Shown: one piece after another, positions 15,159-61,989 of the stretch | Layout: each line of letters starts with the position of its first letter | Position numbering within the stretch: the first letter of the stretch is position 1 | DNA from: Candidatus Magasanikiibacteriota bacterium | Lineage (GTDB): Bacteria > Patescibacteriota > Patescibacteriia > Magasanikbacterales > UBA922 | NCBI GenBank assembly: GCA_016193335.1 | Contig: JACPSK010000001.1 | Span: 279,424 to 343,423, forward strand | Direction: 5' to 3' | Length of the DNA: 64,000 nucleotides | Notes under the pieces: model-generated | Told to the model about the DNA's origin: nothing | Seen by the model: the letters and a program-made list of their open reading frames with translations, nothing else | Databases searched by the model: none | Made by a program: the position numbers and the translations under genes

Positions 15159-15179
15159 AGTATAAGATAATTATAGATG

Positions 15180-36021: not shown

Positions 36022-36158
36022 ACAAAATCTTAGGACCGAAAAGACTTGTCTATATTGTAACTCAGATACCTTTATAAAACAAAACGACCCCGCCTCCATC
36101 TATAAACACAATCTTTTGTGAACATAGACAGTGTGGGGTCGTGTGAAACAAAATCTAT

Positions 36159-41935: not shown

Positions 41936-43867
41936 ATGCCTGTCGCGCAAAGCAAACAAGAACAAGACCTGGACAATTTATTTGCCGTGCGTTTTCTTCC
42001 TCATGTAAATAAAATACTCTCTACCTTGCTCGGCGTATTGCCCGGCCCGGATATCAAACTCTTGAGAGAACAAATAACTTCGTCCCTCACTGACACAGCA
42101 AAAATTCTCTCGAGAAAAGGACTCAAAGATGAACAAAGAGCCGCGTCATTGATGAATGTCATCAAAAATTTTGGTGCTCCGCCTCAAAATCCGGATTCCC
42201 TTGAAAATGAACTGGACGATGCTTATTCGGATTTGGAAGAAGAAGACGGAAAACAGACAGAAGAAAAAACCGAACAAAAAAACGACCAGAGAGATAAAGC
42301 CGCTCAAGAACCCGAAGACAAAACACGGGCCGAGGCAGAAGACAGCGCGGGCAGAAAAAAAACAGCTAAGCCGGCTTCAAACGCAGAGAAGCCAGACAAA
42401 ACTGGAGACCAAAAGCAAGCAGAGCATGGTCTCCCCCCTGATGATGAAGCGCAGAAACCAAAACAAGAACCTCAAAATCCAAAGTCGGACACTGCCACTG
42501 AACAAAGGGCCGCGGAATCACCTGAAACCGTACCGGCGCAACAAAAACCGGGAGAAGCGGATAGAAAACCGCCTGTTCGTGAACAGCAAAAACCAAATGA
42601 CGAACAAGAACCAGACAACGAAAAAAACAAACCTGAAGAAAAAACACCGGAAACAGAAAAAAAACCGACAGAAGACAGCCCTACAAAGAAACAAGGCGAA
42701 ACAGAACAAGAATCCTCCCGCCATCCTGCCCAAACAAGCAGTCACGAAGACACGGACGTGGTTGAACAACTAAAAAAACTAGGAGATATCAAATCAGAAG
42801 GAGAAGAAAAAGCTGGGCAAGAACCCAAAGGAACCGGTGAAGAGATTCCTGAAAGAGAAACAACGGGACAAGAGCAAAAATCTCCCGGGATTTCCACAGA
42901 AGGCAAAAACGCGGGAGATCAAGCAATTGAAAATGAAAAAGGTGATGAAGGAGATCAAGAGAATAAAGACAACAGAGGAAAAGAGCCTGAAGCAGAAAAA
43001 AAAGGGCAAGACCAAAAAAAACCTGACGCGGAGGAAGACGCCAATTCGCCGGACGCGAAAGCAAATGAACCTGAAAAAAAACCCGAGGACAAAAATGCCA
43101 AACCGGAGGATGAGGAGAATAAAGACCAGGACTTGGAAAAAGAGCTCGAGGAAGCCTATAAAGACGATGGAGAAGACAAAGAACAGCAAGGCAAAGGAAT
43201 GGAACAAGACCAAGAAGGGCAAGAAAGACCGGGAGGAAAAGGCGGACCAGGCGAGCCCGAACAGAGAGAAGCGGATGAAGAGGGAGCTCAGGACCAAAAT
43301 CAGGAAACTCAGAAGAAAATGATGCAAGAGCAGAAAAAAAGAGGACAAAACACAGAAGCCAAAATACAAGCCTTGCAAAAAAAATTGACAAAAGCTCAAA
43401 AGAAAACCGAACAAATATCCAAAAAAAGAAGCAAACCTTTTGAAAGACAACGCAGCGCGCTCAAAAAACAAAAAGCGGTTTTGCAATTAGAAAAACTAAT
43501 GATATACGTCAAGATGCTTATCGCCATTTTGTGGTGGCTTCTCTTGGCTATTCTTTGGCTTCTTGTTATTATTATATCAATCCCTCTCTTATTTTTTGTA
43601 ATCGGATTCCCCATCATGGGATTCGCGGCCAGGCAGCTGGCAACTGACACCATCAACCTATTCAAAAGACTGGCCGATTACGAAATTCAAATACAGAAAA
43701 TCAACGCGCGGATAAAAACAATAAACAATGAAATCAAAATCCTTAATAAAAAAATCATGGCTATCCAAGGAACCGCGAACAGCAAGCTCAGAGGATACAG
43801 TGAACAGATCCTGCAACAAATCCAAGAACTCCAAACGAAAGGCCTACAAAACCCTTTGACGCGATAA
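41936..43867 (+). CDS. Highly charged low-complexity (K/E/D/Q/P/T-rich) protein with C-terminal multi-helix membrane anchor and coiled-coil tail
   Basis: 643 aa. ~450 aa of KEKE/PEDK-type repeats, then LIAILWWLLLAILWLLVIIISIPLLFFVIGFPIMGF and a heptad-rich end. Many antisense shadow ORFs at 42156-43486 come from the low-complexity codons. Confidence 0.55.
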   Translation: MPVAQSKQEQDLDNLFAVRFLPHVNKILSTLLGVLPGPDIKLLREQITSSLTDTAKILSRKGLKDEQRAASLMNVIKNFGAPPQNPDSLENELDDAYSDLEEEDGKQTEEKTEQKNDQRDKAAQEPEDKTRAEAEDSAGRKKTAKPASNAEKPDKTGDQKQAEHGLPPDDEAQKPKQEPQNPKSDTATEQRAAESPETVPAQQKPGEADRKPPVREQQKPNDEQEPDNEKNKPEEKTPETEKKPTEDSPTKKQGETEQESSRHPAQTSSHEDTDVVEQLKKLGDIKSEGEEKAGQEPKGTGEEIPERETTGQEQKSPGISTEGKNAGDQAIENEKGDEGDQENKDNRGKEPEAEKKGQDQKKPDAEEDANSPDAKANEPEKKPEDKNAKPEDEENKDQDLEKELEEAYKDDGEDKEQQGKGMEQDQEGQERPGGKGGPGEPEQREADEEGAQDQNQETQKKMMQEQKKRGQNTEAKIQALQKKLTKAQKKTEQISKKRSKPFERQRSALKKQKAVLQLEKLMIYVKMLIAILWWLLLAILWLLVIIISIPLLFFVIGFPIMGFAARQLATDTINLFKRLADYEIQIQKINARIKTINNEIKILNKKIMAIQGTANSKLRGYSEQILQQIQELQTKGLQNPLTR

Positions 43868-43958: not shown

Positions 43959-45206
43959 ATGGACAGAAAACGCCTTGTCTTTGCCCTCATATTCGCCGTC
44001 ATCAGCATACTGCTCGGTTATGCCATTTATAGGGTTTTCTTTAAAAAAATTCCGGCAGAAAAACCATTGCAGACCGGCATAACAGACACAAGCGGAACTT
44101 TCCCTGCCATAGAAAGCGGCGGCCCAAAAGAAGGAAGCATCGGTCCCACAGGATTGCCCATAAGTGACACAAAAATCACTCCGACCGGACAGGAAACCGG
44201 CGAAAGCCAGCTCCGTCTGCCACGCACGGCGAGCGGAGAAGAACCGCGTCTTAAAAAAGTAGTGGAAGCCGAGGTCTTGAGCCCCTCCCCCACCAAAAAT
44301 GGCGGAGCGAAATTTTACAACCAAGAAGATGGAAAATTCTACCGCCTCAATCCCGATGGCAGCATGACACCTCTCAGCGATAAAGTATTTTTTAATGTTT
44401 CCAAAGCCACCTGGTCGCCGTCCAACAATGAAAGTATCATCGAATATCCGGATGGTGCGAACATATACTACAATTTTGACACCGGACGCCAAGTGAGCCT
44501 CCCCAAACACTGGGAAGAATTCAGTTTTTCCCCTCAAGGAGAAAAAGTGGCTGCCAAAAGCATGGGTCTTTCTCCGGACAACCGATGGCTCATCACATCA
44601 AACCCGGACAGTTCTGAAATCAAACTGGTGGAACCTATGGGAAAAAACGCGGACAAAGTTACGGTTGATTGGTCTCCAAACAAGCAAATCGTAGCCCTGT
44701 CCAGAACAGGAGATTCTCTCGGATCAGATAGACAAGAAGTGCTCCTCGTGGGCCAAAATAAAGAAAATTTCAAATCCATCGTCGTGGAAGGCAGAGGCCT
44801 AAAGACCGCCTGGTCCGCGAGCGGCGGCAAATTGCTCCACAGCGTGTACAACGCGAGAAACGATTTTAAACCTGAGCTCTGGATCGTGAATGCGGAAGGA
44901 GACAACATCGGGTCAAACCGAAAACTTTTAAACGTAAGCACTTGGGCAGATAAATGCGCCATGCCGGATGAACGCTTTGCTTATTGCGGCGTACCGACCA
45001 CTTTGCAAACCGGAGCGGGCTTCGCGCCGGATCTTGCCAACGACACGCCGGATTTGCTTTATAAAATAGACACCGTAACTGGCATAAAAACGCAGATTCC
45101 TCTTGAAGGTTTTCACGTTATAAACAAAATCATCATATCCCCCGACGCCAAGACTCTTTATTTCACGGGTAAAAATGAAACAGGCTTAAATCAGGTAAAA
45201 TTATAG
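43959..45206 (+). CDS. Membrane-anchored TolB-like (PD40/WD40-like beta-propeller) protein
   Basis: 415 aa. N-terminal TM. Repeated W/FSP..... propeller blades (WSPSNNESIIEY, FSPQGEKVAA, WSPNKQIVAL). Confidence 0.5.
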   Translation: MDRKRLVFALIFAVISILLGYAIYRVFFKKIPAEKPLQTGITDTSGTFPAIESGGPKEGSIGPTGLPISDTKITPTGQETGESQLRLPRTASGEEPRLKKVVEAEVLSPSPTKNGGAKFYNQEDGKFYRLNPDGSMTPLSDKVFFNVSKATWSPSNNESIIEYPDGANIYYNFDTGRQVSLPKHWEEFSFSPQGEKVAAKSMGLSPDNRWLITSNPDSSEIKLVEPMGKNADKVTVDWSPNKQIVALSRTGDSLGSDRQEVLLVGQNKENFKSIVVEGRGLKTAWSASGGKLLHSVYNARNDFKPELWIVNAEGDNIGSNRKLLNVSTWADKCAMPDERFAYCGVPTTLQTGAGFAPDLANDTPDLLYKIDTVTGIKTQIPLEGFHVINKIIISPDAKTLYFTGKNETGLNQVKL

Positions 45207-45352: not shown

Positions 45353-46003
45353 ATGTTAAAAACTCGTCACCTCATGTTTATTTTCATACCTGCCACGCTT
45401 TTGGCCGCCGTTTTTCTTTTCGTCCGCGTGGTGCAATATCAGCCGCTCTTTCCAAAAGAAGACAAAACCGAAAATCCGGAAAGCAAAACGCTTTCAGTGC
45501 CCATATTTCCCGATGACCCAATTCTGGGAAACAAAAAAGCCGGCACAGGAATTGTGGCTTTCGAAGATTTTGGCTGTGAAGCTTGCAAAGAGCAAACGGC
45601 TATTTTTGAAGAATTGGTAAACAAATATCCTGGCGCTATAAGAATTATCTGGAAAGGCTTGCCGGTAACACAATTCCCCTACCCCACCGAGCTCGCCGAG
45701 AGCTACGGATATTGCGCGAATAAACAAGGAATGTTCGATATTTTCAAAACCTATGCTTTCAGTAACAGCGGCAATCTTTCACAAACAAGTCTTGATATCA
45801 TTTCAGAGGAAATAAAACTGAACAAAGAAAAACTGACCGAGTGTCTGGAATCTCCCGCTACCGCAAACCACATAACGCAGACAAAACAAATTGCCCGCAT
45901 ACTCAATATTCAGGCAGTACCGGCCATATTTGTGAATGGAAAGCAAATTGATCCGCCAAAGAGTCTGGAAGGCTGGGAGACGCTTTTGGGGTTATCACAA
46001 TAA
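45353..46003 (+). CDS. DsbA-like thiol:disulfide oxidoreductase (thioredoxin fold, CxxC)
   Basis: 216 aa. N-terminal TM, active site FGCEACKEQ, DsbA-type helical insertion. Confidence 0.7.
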   Translation: MLKTRHLMFIFIPATLLAAVFLFVRVVQYQPLFPKEDKTENPESKTLSVPIFPDDPILGNKKAGTGIVAFEDFGCEACKEQTAIFEELVNKYPGAIRIIWKGLPVTQFPYPTELAESYGYCANKQGMFDIFKTYAFSNSGNLSQTSLDIISEEIKLNKEKLTECLESPATANHITQTKQIARILNIQAVPAIFVNGKQIDPPKSLEGWETLLGLSQ

Positions 46004-46009
46004 GTATCT

Positions 46010-48448
46010 ATGAAATTTTTGCCGTTTTCCTTCAAATCCGCGATCATACCCATGATCGGACTTCTTTTTTTATGTCCTTTTCAAACTTCTGCCGCCGAAG
46101 TGCCCAATATTACCGTAGTAAGCTACAACATTCAGGGTGGCTGTTCGGCGCCCATGGATGAAGGCAGCTATAATTTGGACAAAACAATAGCAGAGCTGCA
46201 ATCACTAAACGCCGACATAATTTTTCTCCAAGAAGTACAAGGACAGTCTGTTTCAAAAGGAACCTGCAAAAAATCATTCAACAAAAATCAATATAGCACC
46301 ATAGCTTCCGAGCTTAAGATGAAGTCTTATTATTCCCAGCGTCTTCAAATTTTAGCGCGCAGTGATTTTAAGCTGACAGATACAAAATCAGTTCAATACA
46401 ATGCCCAAAAATCTTCAGGAACCAAACGTTATTACGCAAGAGGGCAAGTCGAGACCTCCGATGGCTTCAAATTTATTGTATACAATACCCACGCGGAACG
46501 TTTCGATCCTCTCCAACGCATAGCCCAAATAAAACAGTTGGCAGCGGACGCTGCTCAAGAAACATTCCCTGTCATAGTCGGGGGAGATTTCAATGAATGT
46601 TCAGACGAACCATTCAAAATATTCGGCCTGTCATTCAATGCCGCGCTCGGATCCACGGCCACCTTTACCCCGCTTCAGCCCAAAAGCTCAAAAACCTTGC
46701 AAGATCTCATAAAAAGTTCAAGCTGTAAATTGACGGTCTCAAATATCAATGAACGGCTTGATTATCTCTTCGGCAGCAAGACACATTGGGTTTTGACAAA
46801 CGCGACTGTGGTCACTGGTGCTGGCGCCACTTCGGATCATTATCCCATTACCACCACCTTCCAAGCCACTGAAGGAGCCATTGCTCTCTCCGGACTTGGT
46901 ACTCCCCCTCCCGCGGCACCCGCCTCGCCACCCGCCCCCCAACCCGGCAAAGGCAACTTTGGCAAAGAATGCGACACCGACGCGGATTGTCCGGTGGGGA
47001 ATGAATGCGAACAGAGCATACATCCGAATGGAAAAGAATACTGTGTTTGTGAAGAGGCGGCGCATTGCGTGGAAGAATATGGCGGAGACGTAAAAGAATG
47101 GACCTGTTCCAATGGGAGTAATGTGTCGTATGAGTTGAATTATTGTTTAAAAGGAAGCACGCCCTATTATCCGATCGGAGAAAATCCGGCGGCAAAGAAT
47201 GTAACGAGTGATGTGGGGCGAGCTTTTGATGGGGCGGCCCTCTCTGAGAGTGAAATACAAAAACTCCTCAAGAAGCCGGTGCCCAAGATCAGGATTCCGG
47301 GGTTGGAGTTTAGTGAGATTGATATAGAAAGACTGCGCGGAGATGGCGTGGACGCCTCGTATCTCTATATTCCTTTTTTAGGAGAATATATCGCGGCTGT
47401 GTACAAATTTAGCGTTATCCTTATTACCGTATTATCTACCGCGCTTCTCATTCTCGGAGGCCTGCAATGGACTCTCAAAGGAGGAGGCACAGGAAATGAA
47501 GAGGTGAAAAAACGCATTACTGGCAGTATCATAGGTCTTCTTCTTTCTCTGGGTTCTTACACAGTCCTTTATCTCGTTAATCCGAATTTACTGGAATTTA
47601 AGGCTCTAAGGGTTCAATTTATAGCTCCTGAACCCTATGCCGACTATGAGGAATTGCCGGAAACCGCTGATTTCGGATATGCGCAAGGATCAGGGCCAGT
47701 CAGCGCCGAAGCGCAAAAAACCATAGGCGGCCTAATCGGCGGGCCGAATACCCTTACGGCTTGCTCCAAAGAAGCGGCTCAAAACGCCTCCCAAAAACTA
47801 CATGACTTAAAAATTTGCACAGGGCCCTGCCATTGTGGCTATACCGCAACTAGATTCTTATCCTATATAGGATGCGGCAACAAAACGCTCAGCGGAGGCG
47901 CGAATATAAACGTTCCGTCTCTGGAACAGCAAGGATGGATTTCAGCAAAAATCAGCCAAGAAAACTACAAATCCCTCCCGGTAGGGCTCTTATGGTTTCC
48001 CGGTCACAATGGCGTTTCCATAGGCGACGGAAAACTATTCGAATCAACTCCGGGCAAAGCCTTCCAACGAGTGGCGGAGGGGACCTCTTGTCCCATCGAA
48101 ATTACCGATGTCCCGGCCGGTTCCGGCATCTGCGATGCCTGTTCAAAACTACAAGGGCACGGTCCGGCGTCCAAATTATACTTTCGGCCGCGCGATCCAC
48201 GAGCCTGCCATAGTAACCAAGGTTGGTCTCAAGGAACCCATGTAAAAGCATTCAGACTTGTGGTTTTCCCTGCTGATACTGCCCCAAACAAACCGCCGCT
48301 CGGTTGCTGCAAAATAAATAATAAAGATACTTACTTTTCTTCTGAACTTTTTTGCAAAGAATTCAGTATCAGATGGAAAAATAAGGCTTACGTCAATCTT
48401 CCGTATACTTGGGATTCTTCCATAACCGACAAAAATCTGTGTAAATAA
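46010..48448 (+). CDS. Modular secreted enzyme: signal peptide, EEP-family nuclease/phosphatase, Pro-rich linker, Cys-rich module, two-helix membrane hairpin, C-terminal papain-like (CHAP/NlpC-like) putative peptidoglycan hydrolase
   Basis: 812 aa. EEP motifs VVSYNIQGG, IFLQEVQ, GGDFNE, TSDHYPI. Cys module GKGNFGKECDTDADCPVGNECEQ...CVCEE..HCVEEYGG. Hairpin IAAVYKFSVILITVLSTALLILGGLQWTLKGGGTGNEEVKKRITGSIIGLLLSLGSY. C-terminal CHCGYTATRF...FPGHNGVSIGDG (Cys/His). Confidence 0.75.
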   Translation: MKFLPFSFKSAIIPMIGLLFLCPFQTSAAEVPNITVVSYNIQGGCSAPMDEGSYNLDKTIAELQSLNADIIFLQEVQGQSVSKGTCKKSFNKNQYSTIASELKMKSYYSQRLQILARSDFKLTDTKSVQYNAQKSSGTKRYYARGQVETSDGFKFIVYNTHAERFDPLQRIAQIKQLAADAAQETFPVIVGGDFNECSDEPFKIFGLSFNAALGSTATFTPLQPKSSKTLQDLIKSSSCKLTVSNINERLDYLFGSKTHWVLTNATVVTGAGATSDHYPITTTFQATEGAIALSGLGTPPPAAPASPPAPQPGKGNFGKECDTDADCPVGNECEQSIHPNGKEYCVCEEAAHCVEEYGGDVKEWTCSNGSNVSYELNYCLKGSTPYYPIGENPAAKNVTSDVGRAFDGAALSESEIQKLLKKPVPKIRIPGLEFSEIDIERLRGDGVDASYLYIPFLGEYIAAVYKFSVILITVLSTALLILGGLQWTLKGGGTGNEEVKKRITGSIIGLLLSLGSYTVLYLVNPNLLEFKALRVQFIAPEPYADYEELPETADFGYAQGSGPVSAEAQKTIGGLIGGPNTLTACSKEAAQNASQKLHDLKICTGPCHCGYTATRFLSYIGCGNKTLSGGANINVPSLEQQGWISAKISQENYKSLPVGLLWFPGHNGVSIGDGKLFESTPGKAFQRVAEGTSCPIEITDVPAGSGICDACSKLQGHGPASKLYFRPRDPRACHSNQGWSQGTHVKAFRLVVFPADTAPNKPPLGCCKINNKDTYFSSELFCKEFSIRWKNKAYVNLPYTWDSSITDKNLCK

Positions 48449-48463
48449 AATACGCGCCAGTCT

Positions 48464-49546
48464 TTGTCCCTGCGCTTAATTTTTATGAAACTGAATCATC
48501 TTTTATTGATTTTCGGTATTTTACTGCCTTTTTTTCTTTTTTTGACGGTAAACCACACTTTATTATCAAAAAAAAATGACATAAAATCCGTATTATTGGA
48601 AAAACCGCGAAGGATAGGATCTGACACTGTGTACTTTCCCTTTTTCGACAAAAAAGAAAACACAGTCACCTATTGGGCGTCAAAAGAAAACGCGTTAAAA
48701 ACGATCTCCTTATCAAATCCGGGGAAAACACTAAAAAAACAAAACACAAGCATCGGGGGCGACACTACAGACATACTGTGGGCACCGAACGGGATCGCGT
48801 TCGCGGAAAAAAACAACGGCGGTTTACGCGTGCGCTCTCTCGATAAAGAAGCGGCGTACCATATTGACGGAGACATAGAAAGCGCTGCATGGTCCCCGGA
48901 CAGCAAAAAACTGCTATACCAAAACTTTTCGGATAGAAACGCCACGAAAAGTTCCCTGTACATCTTCAACAGAGAAACAGGCTCAAGCAGCCTATACCTG
49001 GAACTGGGCGAGCCGGAGGCGTCTTTTTCTGAGGGCATCGTTTTACTTTCTTGGCCAGAAGAAAAAAAAATACTTTATGCTCAAGCAAGCACAGACCAAA
49101 GTCTTCCGGCTTGGTGGAACACGGATAAAGAAGCTCCTGAGAATGAATTATTAAGCGGAATACGCTTTTTGGAATTGTCGCCAGACAAAAAAAACTTGCT
49201 CACTGAAGTGGAAAAACCGGGCAATCAACAGTATACTGTGTATGCCGTACAAAATATGTTAACCGGCGAAGAGGCCCCCACGGATATATCGCCGCAAGAA
49301 TCCTTATGCGCTTGGAAAACGAACACCGCTTTGTTGTGCGTGAGCGCGAAAATAAGTTCTGACGTCGTCTATATCGGGAGTGTCAATCTTCAAGATGGTG
49401 AATACACCCTGCATGGAGCAGTCCGTTCTGAGGACATGGATATCAATCAAAATTCAGAATACATGCATATAGTGGGGAACAATTTCTTTTATATTTCGTC
49501 TTTTGACCAAGGACTATATTCTATAAAGTTGAAAAATACACAATAA
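48464..49546 (+). CDS. Membrane-anchored beta-propeller (TolB/PD40-like) protein, paralogous in style to 43959-45206
   Basis: 360 aa. N-terminal TM. WAPNGIAFAE and WSPDSKKLLYQ blade motifs. Confidence 0.5.
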   Translation: MSLRLIFMKLNHLLLIFGILLPFFLFLTVNHTLLSKKNDIKSVLLEKPRRIGSDTVYFPFFDKKENTVTYWASKENALKTISLSNPGKTLKKQNTSIGGDTTDILWAPNGIAFAEKNNGGLRVRSLDKEAAYHIDGDIESAAWSPDSKKLLYQNFSDRNATKSSLYIFNRETGSSSLYLELGEPEASFSEGIVLLSWPEEKKILYAQASTDQSLPAWWNTDKEAPENELLSGIRFLELSPDKKNLLTEVEKPGNQQYTVYAVQNMLTGEEAPTDISPQESLCAWKTNTALLCVSAKISSDVVYIGSVNLQDGEYTLHGAVRSEDMDINQNSEYMHIVGNNFFYISSFDQGLYSIKLKNTQ

Positions 49547-49549
49547 CAT

Positions 49550-51913
49550 ATGGAAAGGCGAAAAAAAATGACACAAATAACAAAAAACATTACAGACATA
49601 ATAGTGGCCGGCTCTTTTTTGCTATTTCTTTTCTTGCCCCAGGCAAGCCAAGCCGCCCCAAAACTCCTCAACACGGTCGGTTCAGTGGAACACTATACAT
49701 ACAGTTCCTCTTGCTCGGGAACAGGAACACAAAATCTCATCGTCAATACAACGCAGAGTTCTTACTCCAACATCTACTTTTTCTTCCACGGTCAAACCTC
49801 CCCCAGCCCAAAAGGATTCTGCGAAGGCGCTTTTCAACTTTGCTCTCGGGCAAAAGAACAGCCGTCTTCTCTCTTTGTGGGCGTTTCCATGAAAGGATCC
49901 GGCAACCAATGGGTTTCCAAAGTTGATTTTCCCTGCCTTTACAATGAAGCGAAAACACAGCTTGACGAACTTGGCATTCCCATGCCGAGCAGTGTAAACA
50001 TGGCCGCTTTCAGCTATGGCGGCAGAGCCCTTCAAAATATATTCAATCAAGGGAAACAGCAGGGAAACGTCAAAAGCACGCTTTTTTTCGATGCCTGTTT
50101 CGGAAGCTGGTGTTCTGACGTGGCAAAAAAATCTTCTTCAATCCGCGGGTCACAATATATGTACGCTTCTTCAGCCACGGACAATGACAACGGCAAAAAA
50201 AATCAAGAAGCCGCCGCTGCCGCCATCAAAGCCTCAAGCGATGCCACGCGTTATGTGCATGTGCCGGTGAACAACCATGGTCTCATACCCAACATATGTT
50301 TTTGGGATCATATAAACAGTGATCTCTGCCAGGGAAAGGGAGTCTTAAAATCTTCTTCCGATCTTCCGCAAACTCCGGCCGAGCCAGTCCAAAACCCTGC
50401 CGGCAAAGGCAACTTCGGCAAAGAATGCGACACCGACGCGGATTGTCCGGTAGGGAATGAATGCGAACAGAGCATACATCCGAATGGCAAGGAATACTGT
50501 GTTTGTGAAGAAGACGCTCATTGTGTGGAAGAATATGGCGGAGATCCAAAAGAATGGACCTGTTCCAATGGGAGCAATGCGTCGTATGAGTTGAATTATT
50601 GTTTAAAAGGAAGCACGCCTTATTATCCGATCGGAGAAAATCCGGCGGCAAAGAACGCAACGAGTGACGTAGGGCGAGCTTTTGATGGGGCGGCCCTCTC
50701 TGAGAGTGAAATACAAAAACTCCTCAAGAAGCCGGTGCCCAAGATCAGGATTCCGGGGTTGGAGTTTAGTGAGATCAGCGTGGAGGGATTAAGCTCAATG
50801 GACGCGGGAGGAAAAACTTATCTCAATATCCCCTTTCTCGGACAATACATCGCCAGCTTATACAAATATCTCATTATTCTTATTACCGTTGTTTCGACGG
50901 TATTCTTGATCATTGGCGGCATGCAGTGGATTTTGGGCGGTAGCGGATCAGGAAAAGAAGAAATAAAACAACGCATGATAAACAGCCTCATAGGCCTTAT
51001 TGTAGCACTCAGCTCTTATGTAATATTGCATACCATCAACCCTGATCTGGTGCAATTCAAAGCTCTAAAAGTCTTATACGCCCAACCAAACGAATTCTTC
51101 GCGACTCCTCCTGAAAATGATGAAGATAATCCGAATCTTCCGGCCGACACCACTATAGCCGCTAAACCAAATGCCCAGGATGAGGTGACCTCAGACCTCT
51201 TTATGGAAACCGGTATAAACGGTCCGAAAGCGAACGGTTGGCAAATCTGGCAGTCCTTTTCGGAAAATCAAAAAAAAGAAGTCCTGCCTCATCTGTTCAA
51301 ACTTATAGCGGCATGTCCTGGCGAAGGCAATCTTACGAATATCACCGGAATCCCGGGATGGAACGGCATGAAAATCAATTCCCAGGCCTTGGAACCTTTC
51401 AGAAAAGCCAATAAACTGGCCTCTGAATTGGGTTTTGTATTGTATCCCGGAGGAGTGTACAGACCCTCAGCCACACAACTTAGGCTGTGGAATACGGGTG
51501 TCGCGGCCCGCTATCAAAGAGGCCTGAGCGGATGGGAAAATAATCAAGGCAAAATCGCGAGGCCCAGCTGCAAATCCCCTCATCTGAGCGGAGGAGCGGT
51601 GGATGTGAACATGAAATATATCGCTTCCGGCAAAAAACTCGCGGCCAGCGATCCCTTCAAAATAACCAAATCCAATTACGCGACTAAATTTTTGGGGGAT
51701 CCGTATAAAATTATTCTGGAATATATTTTCAATCAAGCCGGATGGCTGCGGCTCTGTTCCGAACATTGGCATTTTGAATATGGTGTGACTGTTTCTTACG
51801 GTAGATGGGACAAGACATCACGTTGCTGGATAGGCAATGAAACATATGATCAACCCATTCCGGACAGCATGAAAGCGGAAGTAAACAAGATCGTTGGCAA
51901 AAATATTTTATAA
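49550..51913 (+). CDS. Modular secreted enzyme: signal peptide, alpha/beta-hydrolase (lipase/esterase-like), Cys-rich module, two-helix membrane hairpin, C-terminal M15 (VanY-like) peptidoglycan peptidase
   Basis: 787 aa. FFFHGQ / AAFSYGG (G-x-S-x-G) / NNHGLIP. Cys module ~96% nt-identical to that in 46010-48448. Hairpin IASLYKYLIILITVVSTVFLIIGGMQWILGGSGSGKEEIKQRMINSLIGLIVALSSY. M15 motifs SPHLSGGAVDV and SEHWHFEY. Confidence 0.75.
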   Translation: MERRKKMTQITKNITDIIVAGSFLLFLFLPQASQAAPKLLNTVGSVEHYTYSSSCSGTGTQNLIVNTTQSSYSNIYFFFHGQTSPSPKGFCEGAFQLCSRAKEQPSSLFVGVSMKGSGNQWVSKVDFPCLYNEAKTQLDELGIPMPSSVNMAAFSYGGRALQNIFNQGKQQGNVKSTLFFDACFGSWCSDVAKKSSSIRGSQYMYASSATDNDNGKKNQEAAAAAIKASSDATRYVHVPVNNHGLIPNICFWDHINSDLCQGKGVLKSSSDLPQTPAEPVQNPAGKGNFGKECDTDADCPVGNECEQSIHPNGKEYCVCEEDAHCVEEYGGDPKEWTCSNGSNASYELNYCLKGSTPYYPIGENPAAKNATSDVGRAFDGAALSESEIQKLLKKPVPKIRIPGLEFSEISVEGLSSMDAGGKTYLNIPFLGQYIASLYKYLIILITVVSTVFLIIGGMQWILGGSGSGKEEIKQRMINSLIGLIVALSSYVILHTINPDLVQFKALKVLYAQPNEFFATPPENDEDNPNLPADTTIAAKPNAQDEVTSDLFMETGINGPKANGWQIWQSFSENQKKEVLPHLFKLIAACPGEGNLTNITGIPGWNGMKINSQALEPFRKANKLASELGFVLYPGGVYRPSATQLRLWNTGVAARYQRGLSGWENNQGKIARPSCKSPHLSGGAVDVNMKYIASGKKLAASDPFKITKSNYATKFLGDPYKIILEYIFNQAGWLRLCSEHWHFEYGVTVSYGRWDKTSRCWIGNETYDQPIPDSMKAEVNKIVGKNIL

Positions 51914-51916
51914 GCT

Positions 51917-53263
51917 ATGCCGGAACCAAAAACACTCTACGTTTGCACGCATTGTGACGCGCAATTCCAAAAATGGATAGGCCGTTGTTTGGAATGCGGA
52001 ACTTGGGGTTCTTTAGAAGAAGTTTCTGCCGCGCGTATGAAACAAGAAAAAGAAAACGCGGCGATCCCCGCAAAAACGCAAGAACTTTCAGAACTAAAAA
52101 CAACTCAGACCGAACGAATCCCAAGCAAGATCAGAGAATTGGATCGAGTGCTCGGAGACGGCATAGTGCCGGGAAGCCTGATACTCCTTGGCGGAGAGCC
52201 GGGGATCGGCAAATCCACGCTCGCTTTGCAATTGGCCGCCATTGTGGACAAAACGCTGTACATTTCCGGCGAGGAATCGGCCGGTCAAATCGCAATGCGG
52301 GCTCGCCGAATTTTAAGTGAAAAATTTTCAAAAAATATCAAAGTCCTCAACGAAACAAACGTGGAAACTATTGTGTCCACTCTCAAGGTCGAATCCGCGA
52401 ACTTCGCGATCATTGATTCCATTCAAACACTCTATTCAGAAGAGGTGAGCGGAGGCGCCGGATCTCCAAATCAAATCCGCGCCTGCACGGTAAAGCTGCT
52501 CGACTGCGCGAAACAACATACCATAGCCATTTGTATCATTGGACATGTTACCAAAGATGGAGCCGTGGCCGGGCCAAAAACCTTGGAGCATTTGGTAGAC
52601 ACGGTTTTGTATCTCGAAGGAGAACCTCATCATTCGTACCGGGTCCTGCGCGCGGTAAAAAATCGTTTTGGTTCCACCGATGAAGTGGGTATTTTTGAAA
52701 TGGACGAAACCGGTCTCCGCGAAGTTCCCAATCCTTCTGAACATTTTCTCTCCGAACGTGCCGAAAAAACTTCAGGCTCTGTCATTACCTGTCTTATGGA
52801 AGGTACAAGACCTTTGCTCGTGGAAATTCAAGCTTTGGTCCAAAAAACAAGTTTCGGATACCCGGTGCGCAAAGCCAGCGGTTTTGATCTGAACCGTCTC
52901 CATGTTTTGGTGGCAGTCTTGCAGAAACGTGCTGGGCTTAATCTGGCTCAATATGATATTCACATCAATGTGGTGGGCGGACTCAAGGCGGAAGAGCCTT
53001 CCGCTGATCTCTCAATTTGTCTGGCCATAGCAAGCTCATTCAAAGACAAAATTCTTGGGCTAGATTTGGTGGTCTTTGGCGAAGTGGGACTTGGCGGGGA
53101 AATACGCGCGGTTCGGCACACGGAAAAACGTCTAAAAGAATGCGAACAGCTCGGCATGAAACGGGTCATAATGGCTCGCAACAAAAAGATAAAAGAAAAA
53201 AATACCAACAAACTTCATATTATCGGCGTTGGGAATATTGAGGAGCTGATACAGCACGCCTAA
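51917..53263 (+). CDS. radA: DNA repair protein RadA/Sms
   Basis: 448 aa. N-terminal Zn ribbon CTHCDAQFQKWIGRCLECGTWG, RecA-like Walker A GGEPGIGKSTLALQ, KNRFG motif, Lon-like C-terminal domain. Confidence 0.9.
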   Translation: MPEPKTLYVCTHCDAQFQKWIGRCLECGTWGSLEEVSAARMKQEKENAAIPAKTQELSELKTTQTERIPSKIRELDRVLGDGIVPGSLILLGGEPGIGKSTLALQLAAIVDKTLYISGEESAGQIAMRARRILSEKFSKNIKVLNETNVETIVSTLKVESANFAIIDSIQTLYSEEVSGGAGSPNQIRACTVKLLDCAKQHTIAICIIGHVTKDGAVAGPKTLEHLVDTVLYLEGEPHHSYRVLRAVKNRFGSTDEVGIFEMDETGLREVPNPSEHFLSERAEKTSGSVITCLMEGTRPLLVEIQALVQKTSFGYPVRKASGFDLNRLHVLVAVLQKRAGLNLAQYDIHINVVGGLKAEEPSADLSICLAIASSFKDKILGLDLVVFGEVGLGGEIRAVRHTEKRLKECEQLGMKRVIMARNKKIKEKNTNKLHIIGVGNIEELIQHA

Positions 53264-53362
53264 ACTTTCAGTTTCAAGAAGAGTGAGATAATTTGTGTTG
53301 TATGTACCTCAAAGCGTCTGCAGCACCCCTTTTTTCCCCCCTCCACGCTGTGTTCTCTATAT

Positions 53363-53457
53363 TTAAACCCCCTCTTACATCTCCCCCTTAGTAAAGGGGG
53401 AGAGACTGCGCAGCCACGATCCTCTCCTTTACTAAGGAGGGGATATAAGGGGTGGTT
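53363..53457 (+). repeat. Palindromic repeat units (C5/G5-armed hairpin tctcccccttagtaaagggggaga plus ~44-bp unit ccacgatcctctcctttactaaggaggggatataaggggtggtt), left flank of a GC-rich insert
   Basis: Both units recur at 54078-54206 (ccacgatcccctccttttcaaggaggggatgtaaggggtggtt; tctccccctttaaaagggggaga). Seen in sequence. Confidence 0.5.
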
Positions 53458-53652
53458 GAATGGTCTGACCTAGTCCGCAAACAAAAAAACCGACTCTTCA
53501 TCGGAATATAATTAGGATTGGGGTGGCCTTGCGCGCGTACAGCTCTATCACCCCCACTGCGATGAAAAGCATGTACAAACACACGCGGAGCTTGCCCAAA
53601 GCTCAACGCGGGCGCGCAAGGCTATAGAAAGGTGGGAGCCCGGCCTGCCGGG

Positions 53653-53940
53653 CTAGAGGTTGGCGATGTTCTTCCGGGTCGGGTCTCCGCGGACCTGGCG
53701 GCAGCCCGTCGGCAGTCGCCGCTCGGAGCCGAGCAGACCCTCCCGGCTCTGGTGGGGGCGATGGGAGACGCCCTCCACCTCGATCCCGAGCCCGAGGGCC
53801 TGCTCGATCCCCTGCTCGAACTCGGCCGTGACCTTACCGTTCCGGTACTGAACGATGAAGGCCACTCCCTCGCTGATCGCGACGGCCACCGTACCAGTCC
53901 CGCCACGGGGCGGGAAAGGACGCTTCTTGATATCCTTCAA
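53653..53940 (-). CDS. Small ORF (95 aa) inside a ~65% GC insert, function unknown
   Basis: GC3-rich codon pattern coherent in this frame only (MKDIKKRPFPPRGGTGTVAVAISEGVAFIVQYRNGKVTAEFEQGIEQALGLGIEVEG...). No family assigned. Confidence 0.3.
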   Translation of the reverse strand: MKDIKKRPFPPRGGTGTVAVAISEGVAFIVQYRNGKVTAEFEQGIEQALGLGIEVEGVSHRPHQSREGLLGSERRLPTGCRQVRGDPTRKNIANL

Positions 53941-54077
53941 AATTACCTCACCTTGCTAAGTACGCACCTCGCACCGGATGCCCATCCGATGAAAAACGCG
54001 CACAATTAGAAATAATAATAGCAGAAAAAATAGAAAAGTCAAGGCTATTTGCCCTGACCTGTAAACTCCGGAACCAG

Positions 54078-54206
54078 TCTCCCTCCTTTACCAAGGAGAG
54101 GGACATTGCATCCACGATCCCCTCCTTTTCAAGGAGGGGATGTAAGGGGTGGTTATGGATTTCTCCGATAACCCCCCCTTGCATCTCCCCCTTTAAAAGG
54201 GGGAGA
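54078..54206 (+). repeat. Palindromic repeat units, right flank of the GC-rich insert (hairpin, ~44-bp unit, hairpin)
   Basis: See 53363-53457. Hairpins tctccctcctttaccaaggagaggga and tctccccctttaaaagggggaga bracket the second copy of the ~44-bp unit. Confidence 0.5.
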
Positions 54207-54228
54207 GAAGTGATATTTATGGATTTGC

Positions 54229-57938: not shown

Positions 57939-58055
57939 ATTGTAGCATATTTTGGATCTATCACTTCACGAAATACTTTAAAAATCAGAGAAGGAGAGTG
58001 AAGCAGACTGACTTCTGAGGATTCATAAAATATGTTGTCAGTGGATAAACGCAAG

Positions 58056-58160
58056 CCTATACCTTCACAACATATTAGTTTGGGAGCTGGAGGACGAGTG
58101 CGAGAGCGAAGCGGGATGACTTCCGCAAGCTCCCAAACTAATATGTTGTGAAGGTATAGG
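58056..58160. repeat. Conserved ~105-nt palindromic element, locus B (perfect 33-bp stem cctataccttcacaacatattagtttgggagct around the same GC-rich core)
   Basis: Arms are exact reverse complements. Core gaggacgagtgcgagagcgaagcgggatgacttccgca. Lies at the boundary of the high-GC island, upstream of recG. Confidence 0.55.
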
Positions 58161-58225
58161 CGTCTATAGACGTAGACATTTTGCTTTCCTCACTCGGTCC
58201 TTTACAGCAAAGACAAAGAGTTGGA

Positions 58226-58262
58226 AGCAGGGCTCGCGGATGCGATGAGCCCTGCGAGAGGC
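58226..58262 (-). terminator. Hairpin (gcagggctc-loop-gagccctgc) with U-rich tail downstream of the ALDH gene (minus-strand sense)
   Basis: 9-bp perfect GC-rich stem. The minus strand continues ttccaactctttgtcttt. Confidence 0.4.
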
Positions 58263-58291
58263 GAGAGTCCGGCTATGACCGGACGAAAGAA

Positions 58292-60673: not shown

Positions 60674-60687
60674 TTTCCTCTCTCCTA

Positions 60688-61638: not shown

Positions 61639-61784
61639 GGGCGCAAGCACAGGGTGCCTTGCCCTTTCAACAAAACCAGTACCAGTCTGAGTATCCAAAA
61701 AACACCTCGCCTGTAGGTTGTTGCTTGCACAAATGTGCCCGCTGACTCTACTGTATTGAGGTGTTTTTGTAAAGGTATATCGTG

Positions 61785-61856
61785 TGCTCTCGGCAGGAAT
61801 CGAACCTGCATTGCCAGATCCGCAATCTGGTGTCCTATCCATTGAACGACAAGAGC
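61785..61856 (-). tRNA. tRNA-Arg (anticodon GCG)
   Basis: Reverse complement gives gctcttg-tc-gttc-aatggata-ggac-a-ccaga-ttGCGga-tctgg-caat-gcagg-ttcgatt-cctgc-cgagagc-a. All stems pair (one G-U). Confidence 0.8.
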
Positions 61857-61989
61857 TAAATAATTTTTTTGAATCGCGTTCTCTCAGCGTAAAGTTTGGC
61901 CAGTATAATAAATGACAAACAAAAAGTCAACCATTCGGCTGACGCTTTACAGACCAAAATTTTTGGAGTTACCGACAAAACTTAGCGTT

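What the first reader, a model, noticed from the sequence alone, without database searches (positions are those of the whole stretch)
46010..51913. Paired modular 'lytic toolkit' proteins: swapped catalytic heads and tails around a shared Cys-rich/membrane-hairpin core
Two ~800-aa proteins have the same five-part layout but different enzymes at both ends. The shared layout is signal peptide, N-terminal hydrolase, ~125-aa Cys-rich module, two-helix membrane hairpin, C-terminal peptidoglycan hydrolase. One carries an EEP-family DNase-like domain and a papain-like (CHAP/NlpC-type) tail. The other carries an alpha/beta-hydrolase (lipase/esterase GxSxG) head and an M15 VanY-like peptidase tail (SxHxxGxAxD, EHWH). 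A DsbA-like CxxC oxidoreductase (45353-46003) sits immediately upstream in the same operon-like run (gaps of 6, 15 and 3 nt) and fits disulfide formation in the Cys modules. TolB-like propellers interleave. The predicted topology puts both catalytic domains outside the membrane. Nuclease, lipase and murein hydrolases on one anchored scaffold would suit an episymbiont or predator attacking a host envelope, or a polymorphic effector family. I do not recognise this combination as a described system.
Basis: partly seen in the sequence, partly recalled or inferred. Interest (0 to 1): 0.85.

Follow-up and report, generated by a model that had tools for sequence, protein, structure and literature searches.

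The report
Pilin-anchored modular cell-wall-degrading enzymes
Two large secreted proteins of an ultrasmall (Patescibacteria) bacterium carry different envelope-degrading enzymes on either side of a shared membrane hairpin, which is the type IV secretion pilin domain typical of these bacteria; they belong to a large, module-swapping family at a conserved chromosomal locus that I did not find described as such.

Summary
P1 (46010-48448, 812 aa) and P2 (49550-51913, 787 aa) share a 244-aa core at 73% identity. Their heads and tails are unrelated to each other.

- P1 head is an EEP domain (Pfam).
- P2 tail is an M15/VanY peptidase.
- The upstream gene is a DsbA-like oxidoreductase with CxxC.
- P2 head as an alpha/beta hydrolase rests only on motifs and co-varying Ser/Asp.

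It is the Patescibacteria VirB2-like T4SS_pilin domain (PF18895).

The pair belongs to a large family centred on Ca. Magasanikbacteria. The best 148 other relatives carry amidase, SLT, M15, M23, C39-like, NlpC/P60 and GDSL modules. Heads and tails occur in many combinations.

The gene sits in a conserved slot: propeller, DsbA, X, radA. That slot holds at least seven blast-defined tail classes across genomes, plus tails matching none. A 300-nt, 94%-identical repeat in the two genes marks recent recombination.

Most likely these are outward-facing, anchored lytic enzymes. Whether they act on a host or on the cell's own wall is unresolved. I rate this a new variant of a known kind.

The parts
41936..43867 (+). 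Lys/Glu-rich low-complexity protein (643 aa) with a strongly hydrophobic C-terminal membrane region. It is the upstream neighbour. Belonging to the module is uncertain.
   Evidence: Its C-terminal part has homologues just upstream of the propeller gene in loci L003-L005 and L012. No Pfam family passes the cut-off.
43959..45206 (+). prop1: N-terminally membrane-anchored beta-propeller-like protein (415 aa). It is the conserved first gene of the propeller-DsbA-X-radA block.
   Evidence: TM-like N-terminus. 27 orthologues at E<1e-50; among the loci listed they lie directly upstream of the DsbA-like gene, except L031 (no DsbA-like hit). An 8-sequence profile hits TolB propellers weakly (E 0.007-0.02) and designed propellers.
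45353..46003 (+). Membrane-anchored DsbA-like thiol:disulfide oxidoreductase (216 aa, CEAC at 75-78).
   Evidence: Thioredoxin_4 E 1.5e-21 and DSBA E 2.8e-8. CxxC is kept in 25 of 30 orthologues. The neighbouring X proteins hold 6-43 Cys.
46010..48448 (+). P1 (812 aa), in order: signal peptide, EEP head, Cys-rich module, extended T4SS_pilin hairpin, NlpC/P60-CHAP-like tail.
   Evidence: The same protein, called from Met15, is on NCBI contig CAYOIR010000003.1 of GCA_964404105.1.
46118..46840 (+). P1 head: endonuclease/exonuclease/phosphatase (EEP) domain, aa 37-277. Catalytic motifs are intact: YNIQ39, LQEV73, NTHAE159, GGDFNE191, SDHYP275.
   Evidence: PF03372 E 1.5e-14, covering the full model. 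PDB profile hits are only weak and spread over EEP subfamilies.
46940..47317 (+). P1 Cys-rich module plus linker (aa 311-436; 8 Cys at 321-379). It is near-identical to the P2 copy and contains the 300-nt repeat 46944-47243.
   Evidence: About two thirds of the 153 family proteins analysed (99, counting P1, P2 and P0001) have this module. Only weak hits to small disulfide-rich families such as LEAP-2, nodulin and Dickkopf_N.
47318..47614 (+). P1 extended pilin module (aa ~437-535): two TM helices with a KKR loop, followed by the NPNLLEFKALRV motif. The KIRIPGLEFSEI motif lies just upstream, at the end of the linker part.
   Evidence: Hydropathy. Helices 454-491 and 497-523. hhalign against the T4SS_pilin domain of the 722-aa window protein gives E 1.6e-5. 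88 of 148 relatives hit PF18895.
47636..48448 (+). P1 tail (aa 543-812): disordered linker, then a papain-like NlpC/P60-CHAP catalytic domain (Cys609, His666, FES 677-679), then a Cys-rich beta subdomain.
48464..49546 (+). prop2: membrane-anchored propeller-like protein (360 aa), a distant paralogue of prop1, lying between the two hydrolase genes.
   Evidence: hhalign against the prop1 profile gives E 2.3e-6, probability 89%. Weak PD40 and TolB hits. A homologue sits at the same place in L011 only.
49550..51913 (+). P2 (787 aa), in order: signal peptide, alpha/beta-hydrolase-like head, Cys-rich module, extended T4SS_pilin hairpin, M15/VanY peptidase tail.
49655..50365 (+). P2 head (aa ~36-272): putative Ser-Asp-His esterase or lipase (HG80-81, Ser155 in AFSYGG, Asp181, His243).
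   Evidence: Alignment A3. Ser and Asp co-vary across 11 homologues. One homologue each hits LCAT (E 3.7e-4) and DUF900 (E 0.033). No PDB, Pfam or phage match for P2 itself.
50396..50776 (+). P2 Cys-rich module plus linker (aa ~283-409). It contains the repeat copy 50400-50699.
50777..51073 (+). P2 extended pilin module (aa ~410-508).
   Evidence: PF18895 E 3.8e-5, 24.1 bits (cut-off 26.6), aa 434-493. Hydropathy.
51371..51781 (+). P2 tail catalytic domain: zinc D-Ala-D-Ala carboxypeptidase/dipeptidase-type M15 (VanY), with SPHLSGGAVD at 676 and SEHWH at 737.
   Evidence: PF02557 E 8.6e-6, 26.0 bits (cut-off 25), model positions 3-129 of 132. NCBIfam D-Ala-D-Ala dipeptidase E 1.2e-7, below its cut-off. 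Motifs.

Best explanation
P1 and P2 are two paralogous members of a large Patescibacteria family, centred on ABY1/Ca. Magasanikbacteria. The family consists of Sec-exported, modular envelope-degrading enzymes.

Scaffold. The shared scaffold is an extended VirB2-like T4SS_pilin hairpin, usually preceded by a small disulfide-rich module.

Export and topology.
1. The signal peptide takes the N-terminal part across the membrane.
2. The two helices insert as a hairpin, with their Lys/Arg loop in the cytoplasm.
3. Both the N-terminal enzyme (an EEP phosphodiesterase or an alpha/beta-type esterase) and the C-terminal peptidoglycan hydrolase (an NlpC/P60-CHAP endopeptidase/amidase or an M15 D-Ala-D-Ala peptidase) therefore end up outside the membrane, tethered by flexible linkers.
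4. The co-transcribed, membrane-anchored DsbA-like oxidoreductase forms the many disulfides.
5. The conserved TolB-like propeller is a partner of unknown role.

Module exchange. Enzyme modules are exchanged by recombination within the conserved core. This gives each lineage its own combination.

Most likely use (inferred, not shown). The enzymes open and digest the envelope of the host or of neighbouring cells, and digest the polymers released at the cell-cell contact zone: wall peptides, ester-linked envelope components, and phosphodiester-linked nucleic acids or lipids.

What is shown: the architecture, the homology, the synteny and the mosaicism. What is inferred: the topology, the enzyme activities, the DsbA dependence and the target.
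For: Architecture and domains.

Hairpin is T4SS_pilin.
- P2 scores 24.1 bits.
- 88 of 148 relatives hit PF18895.
- hhalign to a bona fide domain in the same window gives E 1.6e-5.

Family size. 21,380 representatives at E<=1e-3 and 339 at E<=1e-30. 150 of the 153 proteins analysed (150 search hits incl. P1/P2 themselves, plus P1, P2, P0001) have a C-terminal tail of at least 150 aa, and 32 also have a head longer than 150 aa.

Module census, 148 relatives:
- Amidase_2: 28
- SLT: 16
- VanY: 15
- M15_4: 13
- C39_2: 13
- GDSL_2: 12
- M23: 4
- M15: 4
- NlpC/P60: 2
- EEP: 2
- glucosaminidase: 1
- GH18: 1

Shuffling.
- About 20 tail and 15 head blast clusters.
- The P2-type head occurs with six tail clusters.
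- P0009, P0020 and P0052 combine a P2-type head with a P1-type tail.
- P0158 combines an EEP head with an M15 tail.

Conserved slot.
- The order propeller, DsbA, X is seen in 25-26 of 45 related loci, with radA directly after X in about 19, and again in L047.
- At least seven blast-defined tail classes occur in slot X, plus tails matching none.

Recent recombination between P1 and P2.

DsbA link: adjacency in 30 loci, CxxC kept in 25 of 30, and X proteins with 6-43 Cys.

Literature.
- VirB2-like pilins are widespread in Patescibacteria, form arrays, and are essential in S. epibionticum (PMC12102498, PMC10633639, PMC12857230).
- Surface lytic transglycosylases and phospholipases have been proposed to breach host envelopes (PMC11665869).
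Against: - No activity, localisation or target has been measured.
- Topology rests on hydropathy and the positive-inside rule only. No dedicated predictor was available.
- The locus lies among housekeeping genes (clpB, radA), not in a T4SS cluster. A protein tethered to the producer's own membrane would most easily reach the producer's own wall.
- GDSL and alpha/beta-type modules could be O-acetyl-peptidoglycan esterases rather than lipases.
- About half of the P2-type heads have lost the putative Ser and Asp, so some heads are not enzymes.
- P1 itself does not reach any Pfam pilin threshold, and P2 is just below it.
- The P2 head fold was not modelled.
Confidence: 0.5

Rival explanations
1. 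Housekeeping wall remodelling. The proteins are the cell's own membrane-tethered autolysins, or VirB1-like 'space-makers'. They cut the producer's peptidoglycan for growth, for division, or to let pili and secretion machines pass. The DsbA and the TolB-like propeller are envelope-maintenance partners.
For: - The gene sits in a conserved, usually single-copy slot next to clpB and radA across Magasanikbacteria and relatives.
- The membrane tether keeps the enzymes near the producer's own wall.
- Nearly all identified tails are peptidoglycan hydrolases.
- TolB-type propellers belong to envelope and division systems in other bacteria (established knowledge; weak hit).
- Gram-positive T4SSs use membrane-anchored two-domain hydrolases such as PrgK and TraG (PMC12102498).
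- SLT+GDSL combinations (P0072) fit the pairing of a lytic transglycosylase with an O-acetyl-peptidoglycan esterase (my own knowledge).
Against: - At least seven blast-defined tail classes, several of which cut different bonds, replace each other at the orthologous position, even between genomes whose propeller and DsbA genes both score very strongly against the window's (L003/L004 against L005). This is unusual for a dedicated growth or division hydrolase.
- EEP and esterase heads have no obvious role on the cell's own wall.
- The locus is not near a virB4 cluster in this window.
Confidence: 0.3
2. Modular T4SS pilins. The hairpin is extracted from the membrane by a VirB4-type machine and polymerised, as a major, minor or tip subunit. 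The pilus then carries the enzymes away from the cell to the host surface. Alternatively, the conserved flanking motifs (IxIPGLxFS and NPxLVxFxxLKV) are processing sites that release the enzymes and a mature pilin.
For: - In solved conjugative pili both pilin termini lie on the outer surface (my own knowledge). Fusions at both ends are therefore topologically compatible with a pilus.
- The pilin module plus strongly conserved flanking motifs is the only invariant part of the family.
- Patescibacteria have essential VirB2-like pilin arrays, some interrupted by non-pilin genes (PMC12102498, PMC10633639).
- A genome with this locus (Ca. Magasanikbacteria GW2011_GWC2_37_14, locus L006) is listed as VirB4-positive.
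- The window also holds 722-aa and 4023-aa proteins that begin with the same domain.
Against: - Two ~30-kDa domains per ~8-kDa pilin would crowd a helical filament.
- The locus is not linked to virB4.
- No processing enzyme or cleavage has been shown.
- The same data fit a plain membrane anchor.
Confidence: 0.15
3. Polymorphic toxin/immunity system for competition between bacteria. The conserved core is the delivery part, the variable ends are toxins, and the interleaved propeller (prop2) is the immunity protein.
For: - The ends vary around a conserved core.
- The enzyme repertoire (wall hydrolases, esterases, EEP) matches T6SS and Xanthomonadales T4SS antibacterial effectors (my own knowledge; PMC8262851 for the T4SS case).
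Against: - In about 19 of the related loci X (or a tandem X-X pair) is followed directly by radA, with no extra small gene.
- prop1 is highly conserved while the enzyme modules change, so it does not co-vary as an immunity protein would.
- A prop2 homologue is present at that position in only one other locus, L011.
Confidence: 0.05

Closest known systems
VirB2-like pilins of Patescibacteria (Pfam T4SS_pilin, PF18895) and their arrays (Quinonero-Coronel et al. 2025, PMC12102498; Wang et al. 2023, PMC10633639)
   Same: - A signal peptide followed by a two-helix hairpin of the same family.
- The same phylum.
- Paralogous copies in tandem, or separated by one non-pilin gene.
   Different: - Described pilins are small proteins, often near virB4. 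Here the hairpin is the centre of ~800-aa proteins with an enzyme at each end.
- The hairpin has extra conserved flanking motifs and a Cys-rich module.
- The locus sits between clpB and radA with a DsbA and a propeller, not in a T4SS cluster.
- I found no mention of such fusions in the papers read.
VirB1-like peptidoglycan hydrolases of Gram-positive conjugative T4SSs (PrgK of pCF10, TraG of pIP501, CD419/TrsG types)
   Same: Membrane-anchored, multi-domain wall hydrolases (SLT, CHAP/NlpC-P60, M23) associated with monoderm T4SS biology.
   Different: - Those proteins use an N-terminal membrane anchor (my own recollection, not checked) and lie inside the T4SS operon.
- They carry only wall hydrolases.
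- Here the anchor is a pilin hairpin in mid-protein, the heads are non-muralytic (EEP, esterase), and the locus is elsewhere.
Antibacterial effectors of the Xanthomonadales T4SS (X-Tfe) and T6SS amidase/lipase/DNase effectors (Tae, Tle, Tde)
   Same: - The same kinds of enzyme: NlpC/P60-type amidases, M15-type peptidases, lipases/esterases and nucleases.
- Modular exchange of toxic domains.
- Structural similarity of the P1 tail to Tae3 and Tse1.
   Different: - Those effectors are soluble, are recognised by a C-terminal or adaptor signal, and are paired with immunity genes.
- P1 and P2 have Sec signal peptides and a membrane hairpin, and show no co-varying immunity gene.
Modular type IV pilins (type IV pili, e.g. 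Streptococcus sanguinis PilB/PilC), recalled from memory and not checked here
   Same: A pilin module grafted to a functional globular module, so that the filament displays it.
   Different: - A different, unrelated pilin fold and assembly machine (T4P, not T4SS).
- A single C-terminal module, which is an adhesin rather than a lytic enzyme.
- For P1 and P2, incorporation into a filament is unproven.
Phage endolysins and bacterial autolysins
   Same: - The same habit of domain shuffling.
   Different: - Not phage-borne: no relatives in viral contigs and none in phage records for the P2 head.
- Anchored by a pilin hairpin instead of carrying a wall-binding domain.
- Located at a fixed chromosomal locus.

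Membership tests
T4SS_pilin (PF18895) / VirB2-like pilin | Match to the family HMM at the curated cut-off (26.6 bits) | tested here: inconclusive
   P2 scores 24.1 bits, E 3.8e-5, just below the cut-off. P1 has no hit. 88 of 148 close relatives hit the family at E<=1e-3, best E 1.2e-8. hhalign of the core against the above-threshold domain of the 722-aa window protein gives E 1.6e-5, probability 79%.
T4SS_pilin (PF18895) / VirB2-like pilin | Signal peptide followed by two hydrophobic helices joined by a short basic loop | tested here: met
   Hydropathy windows and the loops KGGGTGNEEVKKRITG (P1) and GGSGSGKEEIKQRM (P2). Helices 454-491 and 497-523.
T4SS_pilin (PF18895) / VirB2-like pilin | Encoded with a VirB4-type T4SS gene cluster | tested here: not met
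   The ORFs scanned in the 64-kb window (>=150 aa up to 42 kb, 5 of the >=120-aa ORFs beyond 56 kb, the locus genes and radA) gave no T4SS ATPase or channel family; the IMPDH-like and RecG-like ORFs at 54-58 kb were not scanned. The neighbours are clpB-like and radA. The rest of the genome was not examined. A related genome is VirB4-positive elsewhere.
T4SS_pilin (PF18895) / VirB2-like pilin | Polymerises into a pilus | not testable with these tools
   Needs fractionation, imaging or mass spectrometry of pili.
Endonuclease/exonuclease/phosphatase (EEP, PF03372): P1 head | HMM match above the cut-off, with the catalytic Asn/Glu/His/Asp motifs | tested here: met
   54.7 bits against 24.5, covering the full model. 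Motifs YNIQ, LQE, NTHAE, GGDFNE and SDHYP are present.
   Profile hits to PDB are weak (E 0.002-0.5). They are spread over nocturnin, Tdp2, a mannosyl-6-phosphatase, AP endonuclease and sphingomyelinase. The substrate cannot be assigned.
NlpC/P60-CHAP papain-like peptidoglycan hydrolases: P1 tail | Sequence match to a curated family model | tested here: not met
   No Pfam or NCBIfam hit for the tail. The PDB profile gives only E 0.2-1.1 hits. All of them are NlpC/P60 and all align at the GHVG motif.
NlpC/P60-CHAP papain-like peptidoglycan hydrolases: P1 tail | Papain-like fold, with the catalytic Cys at the start of a helix and the His on a following strand, both conserved | tested here: met
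   [not shown]
Peptidase M15 / VanY: P2 tail | HMM match above the cut-off, with the zinc-binding H-x6-D and ExxH motifs | tested here: met
   26.0 bits against 25, which is marginal; model positions 3-129 of 132. SPHLSGGAVD at 676-685 and SEHWH at 737-741. 15 VanY and 13 M15_4 tails among relatives.
Alpha/beta hydrolase (esterase/lipase): P2 head | Match to a family model or to the fold | tested here: not met
   No Pfam hit for P2 even at E<=10. No PDB hit with either the sequence or an 11-sequence profile.
Alpha/beta hydrolase (esterase/lipase): P2 head | Nucleophile elbow (G/A-x-S-x-G), an acid and a His in that order, plus an HG oxyanion motif | tested here: inconclusive
   P2 has HG80-81, AFSYG with Ser155, Asp181 and His243. 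All 5 homologues that keep the Ser keep the Asp, and 5 of 6 that lack the Ser have Asn or Gly there. One homologue each hits LCAT and DUF900. This is suggestive, not proof.
DsbA-like thioredoxin-fold oxidoreductase: 45353-46003 | Thioredoxin_4/DSBA HMM match and a CxxC active site, located outside the cytoplasm | tested here: met
   77.7 and 34.2 bits, both above the cut-offs. CEAC at 75-78. N-terminal TM-like anchor. Oxidase activity itself was not tested.
TolB-like (PD40) beta-propeller: prop1 and prop2 | Significant match to propeller repeats or to TolB | tested here: inconclusive
   Pfam PD40 E 0.0016, below its cut-off. The prop1 profile hits TolB at E 0.007-0.02 and designed propellers at E 1e-10, driven by a short repeat.
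Polymorphic toxin systems | Variable toxin module paired with a co-varying adjacent immunity gene | tested here: not met
   Variable modules are present. In about 19 loci radA follows X (or a tandem X-X pair) directly, and the conserved propeller does not co-vary.

The most novel reading that the evidence does not exclude
The family may represent 'modular T4SS pilins': VirB2-type subunits that a Patescibacteria type IV secretion machine extracts from the membrane. They would be built into a pilus, or placed at its tip, so that the filament carries wall-cutting, esterase and phosphodiesterase modules to the host surface. Alternatively they are pro-proteins that are cut at the conserved IxIPGLxFS and NPxLVxF motifs. 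This would give a mechanism for the essential but unexplained T4SS and pilin arrays of epibiotic Patescibacteria.
Probability: 0.15. Interest if true: 0.85.

Novelty: new variant of a known kind. Interest (0 to 1): 0.6.

Why it matters
Patescibacteria make up a large share of uncultivated bacteria and depend on other cells. How they breach hosts and feed on them is largely unknown, and so is the function of their essential T4SS-type pilins.

This finding gives a defined protein family that physically joins the pilin domain to nearly every class of peptidoglycan hydrolase, and to esterase and EEP modules. The family sits at one conserved locus with its own DsbA, and its modules turn over between lineages. 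That provides concrete, testable candidates for the host-envelope toolkit, or for a novel autolysin system. It also offers a handle on host specificity, by comparing module type with host wall chemistry. Finally, the family is a source of diverse disulfide-stabilised muralytic domains.

Tried and rejected
- Single-sequence AlphaFold of full-length P1 gave an unusable model (pLDDT 37). Only the hairpin helices were taken from it.
- The word-index homologue search gave 1 hit with the core and none with the P2-head profile. The exhaustive representative search was needed.
- phmmer of the P1 tail, P2 head, P2 tail and P1 head against PDB gave nothing useful.
- A family profile (A4) against PDB found no solved VirB2/TraA pilin.
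- tblastn of the P2 head against phages gave no match. The viral-contig scan with the core found no relatives. A phage-lysin origin was therefore dropped.
- The afdb50 fold library was unavailable.
- The promoter/terminator scan found no more than chance.
- The polymorphic toxin-immunity reading was considered and ranked low, because radA follows X directly in about 19 of the related loci and the propeller does not co-vary.
- 'Lipase' as a firm label for the P2 head, and 'DNase' for the P1 head, were rejected as over-specific.

Full report
**Observation**

The region holds an operon-like run on the + strand:

| Gene | Coordinates |
|---|---|
| Lys/Glu-rich membrane protein | 41936-43867 |
| Membrane-anchored propeller-like protein, prop1 | 43959-45206 |
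| DsbA-like protein | 45353-46003 |
| P1 (812 aa) | 46010-48448 |
| Second propeller-like protein, prop2 | 48464-49546 |
| P2 (787 aa) | 49550-51913 |
| radA | 51917-53263 |

The gaps are 6, 15, 3 and 3 nt.

BLASTP of P1 against P2 gives a single significant segment: P1 301-543 = P2 273-516, 73% identity, E 7e-125. Nothing else aligns. The stated five-part layout is therefore real.

The shared core is a mosaic. Over P1 aa ~311-436 the two genes are 87-100% identical in nucleotides, with a longest exact match of 104 nt. Over the hairpin they are only 52-68% identical. The repeat finder reports the 300-nt repeat 46944-47243 / 50400-50699 at 94%. This is the signature of recent recombination or gene conversion confined to the Cys-rich module.

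**Domains of P1 and P2**

P1 head:
- EEP (PF03372), 54.7 bits, covering the full model.
- All catalytic motifs are present.
- A 3-sequence profile finds only weak PDB matches, scattered over nocturnin, Tdp2, a mannosyl-6-phosphatase, AP endonuclease and sphingomyelinase.
- 'DNase-like' is therefore possible but not established.

P1 tail:
- It has no Pfam, NCBIfam or PDB sequence hit.
- Ten homologous tails share C..GPCHCA, GW and PGHxGVSxGxGxxFES.
- Their profile touches only NlpC/P60 enzymes, at the GHVG motif, at E 0.2-1.1.
- AlphaFold with that alignment gave pLDDT 73 and pTM 0.75.
- Cys609 starts a helix and His666 starts a strand, as in papain-like enzymes.

P2 tail:
- VanY (M15), marginally above the cut-off at 26.0 against 25 bits.
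- The zinc motifs SPHLSGGAVD and SEHWH are present.

P2 head:
- It matches nothing.
- It does have HG80-81, AFSYG (Ser155), Asp181 and His243.
- Across 11 homologues the Ser and the Asp are kept or lost together: 5 of 5 against 1 of 6.
- One homologue each hits LCAT and DUF900.
- I treat it as a probable Ser-Asp-His esterase that has degenerated in about half of its relatives.

The upstream protein is Thioredoxin_4/DSBA with CEAC and an N-terminal anchor.

**The core**

P2 hits T4SS_pilin (PF18895) at 24.1 bits, just under the cut-off. P1 does not hit it. At family level the assignment holds:
- 88 of the 148 other relatives analysed hit PF18895.
- The core aligns by hhalign (E 1.6e-5) to the above-threshold T4SS_pilin domain of another window protein.

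Hydropathy gives a signal-like N-terminus and two helices with a Lys/Arg loop. By the positive-inside rule, and by analogy with VirB2, both ends lie outside the membrane.

The hairpin is flanked by strongly conserved motifs, IxIPGLxFS before it and NPxLVxFxxLKV after it. Plain small pilins match only the hairpin part of the profile, not the upstream motif region.

The Cys-rich module (8 Cys) resembles only generic small disulfide-rich domains.

**Family and context**

An exhaustive profile search found 21,380 cluster representatives at E<=1e-3. That count includes plain pilins. 339 representatives score at E<=1e-30.

The 150 listed hits include P1 and P2 themselves. Of the 153 proteins analysed (150 search hits incl. 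P1/P2 themselves, plus P1, P2 and P0001):
- 150 have a C-terminal tail of at least 150 aa.
- 99 have the Cys-rich module.
- 32 also have an N-terminal head longer than 150 aa.

Tails fall into about 20 blast clusters and heads into about 15. The P2-type head is joined to six tail clusters. P0009, P0020 and P0052 combine a P2-type head with a P1-type tail.

Pfam census of the 148 relatives:

| Pfam family | Proteins |
|---|---|
| Amidase_2 | 28 |
| SLT | 16 |
| VanY | 15 |
| Peptidase_M15_4 | 13 |
| Peptidase_C39_2 | 13 |
| Lipase_GDSL_2 | 12 |
| M23 | 4 |
| M15 | 4 |
| NlpC/P60 | 2 |
| EEP | 2 |
| Glucosaminidase | 1 |
| GH18 | 1 |

A scan of species-representative genomes returned 45 loci. 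Most are Ca. Magasanikbacteria, with Falkow-, Buchanan- and Peregrinibacteria. The window's own contig is CAYOIR010000003.1 of GCA_964404105.1.

In 25-26 of these loci the order prop1, DsbA-like, X is kept, and in about 19 radA follows X. X carries at least seven blast-defined tail classes, plus tails matching none. Another genome, L047, has the same block with an EEP-core-M15 protein followed by a core-Amidase_2 protein.

The X proteins hold 6-43 cysteines. The DsbA-like neighbour keeps CxxC in 25 of 30 cases.

No relatives were found in viral contigs.

**Literature**

VirB2-like pilins, including PF18895, are known to be widespread in Patescibacteria. They form arrays of 2-11 genes, sometimes interrupted by a non-pilin gene, and they are essential in S. 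epibionticum. The function of the T4SS there is unknown (PMC12102498, PMC10633639, PMC12857230, PMC11665869).

Surface lytic transglycosylases and phospholipases have been proposed to compromise host envelopes (PMC11665869).

I found no description of pilin-hydrolase fusions or of this locus in the library searched. Public annotation names such proteins after their enzyme domain only. This is absence of evidence within a limited library.

**Mechanism**

Shown:
- the architecture
- family membership
- module shuffling
- the conserved locus
- recent recombination between the two paralogues

Inferred:
- Sec export
- a hairpin anchor with both enzymes outside the membrane
- DsbA-dependent folding
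- action on envelope polymers

I favour action on a host's or neighbour's envelope (confidence 0.5), for these reasons:
- Non-muralytic heads ride on the same scaffold.
- Enzyme classes that cut different bonds replace each other at one orthologous slot.

The main rival is own-wall remodelling or a VirB1-like space-maker role (0.3). It is favoured by the housekeeping neighbourhood and by the tether to the producer's own membrane.

Incorporation into a T4SS pilus, or processing at the flanking motifs, is the most novel reading the evidence does not exclude (0.15).

A toxin-immunity system is unlikely (0.05).

**Verdict**

It lacked the key recognition that the core is the Patescibacteria T4SS pilin domain, and that the pair is one instance of a large family with a fixed locus.

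I rate it a new variant of a known kind, with interest 0.6.

Noticed in passing
window 16201-30433 (- strand): Two adjacent genes encode a 722-aa protein (28265-30433; T4SS_pilin at aa 66-131, then Big_5) and a 4023-aa giant protein (16201-28272; T4SS_pilin at aa 67-132, then Laminin_G_3, TIG, Big_5 and DUF4215). In this genome the same pilin hairpin therefore also heads very large surface proteins. TSP3-repeat proteins follow at 14184-16199.
   Followed up: partly
window 58000-62000: GC content jumps to 0.59-0.60 against 0.42-0.47 elsewhere. The stretch holds a 793-aa aldehyde-dehydrogenase ORF (58292-60673, -) and a DeoC/LacD-type aldolase (60688-61842, -), next to a tRNA-Arg. It may be a horizontally acquired island or an assembly chimera.
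   Followed up: partly
window 53264-54228: A gap of about 965 nt lies between radA and the IMPDH-like gene, with no supported ORF. GC peaks at 0.70-0.72 at 53600-53900. Two long hairpin-like stretches (53367-53456 and 54113-54212) match only miRNA-precursor models below threshold. No Rfam family passes the gathering score.
   Followed up: partly
window 41936-43867: A 643-aa protein has about 440 residues of extreme Lys/Glu/Pro/Gln low complexity (AT skew 0.47), followed by a very hydrophobic ~50-residue membrane segment and a coiled-coil-like tail. Homologues of its C-terminal part sit at the same place in several Magasanikbacteria loci (L003-L005, L012).
   Followed up: partly
loci L008, L010, L014, L015, L017, L019, L021, L024, L025, L027-L029, L033, L034: Many TPA MAG records are titled 'uncultured Gammaproteobacteria bacterium'. 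Most of those listed (11 of 14) nevertheless carry the propeller-DsbA-pilin-hydrolase block seen in Ca. Magasanikbacteria loci, with radA following in seven. The record titles look wrong. By its accession series, the window's own assembly (GCA_964404105.1) may belong to the same batch.
   Followed up: no
locus L034 439-5224: Four tandem genes each encode a pilin-core protein with a ~190-300-aa tail. This is an array of fused pilins, comparable to the 'VirB2 arrays' reported for Patescibacteria.
   Followed up: no
window 505-1185 (-) and 34903-36099 (-): An AbiEii-type nucleotidyltransferase toxin ORF lies near the window start. A CAP (cysteine-rich secretory protein) domain protein lies at 34903-36099. 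Neither is linked to the finding.
   Followed up: no
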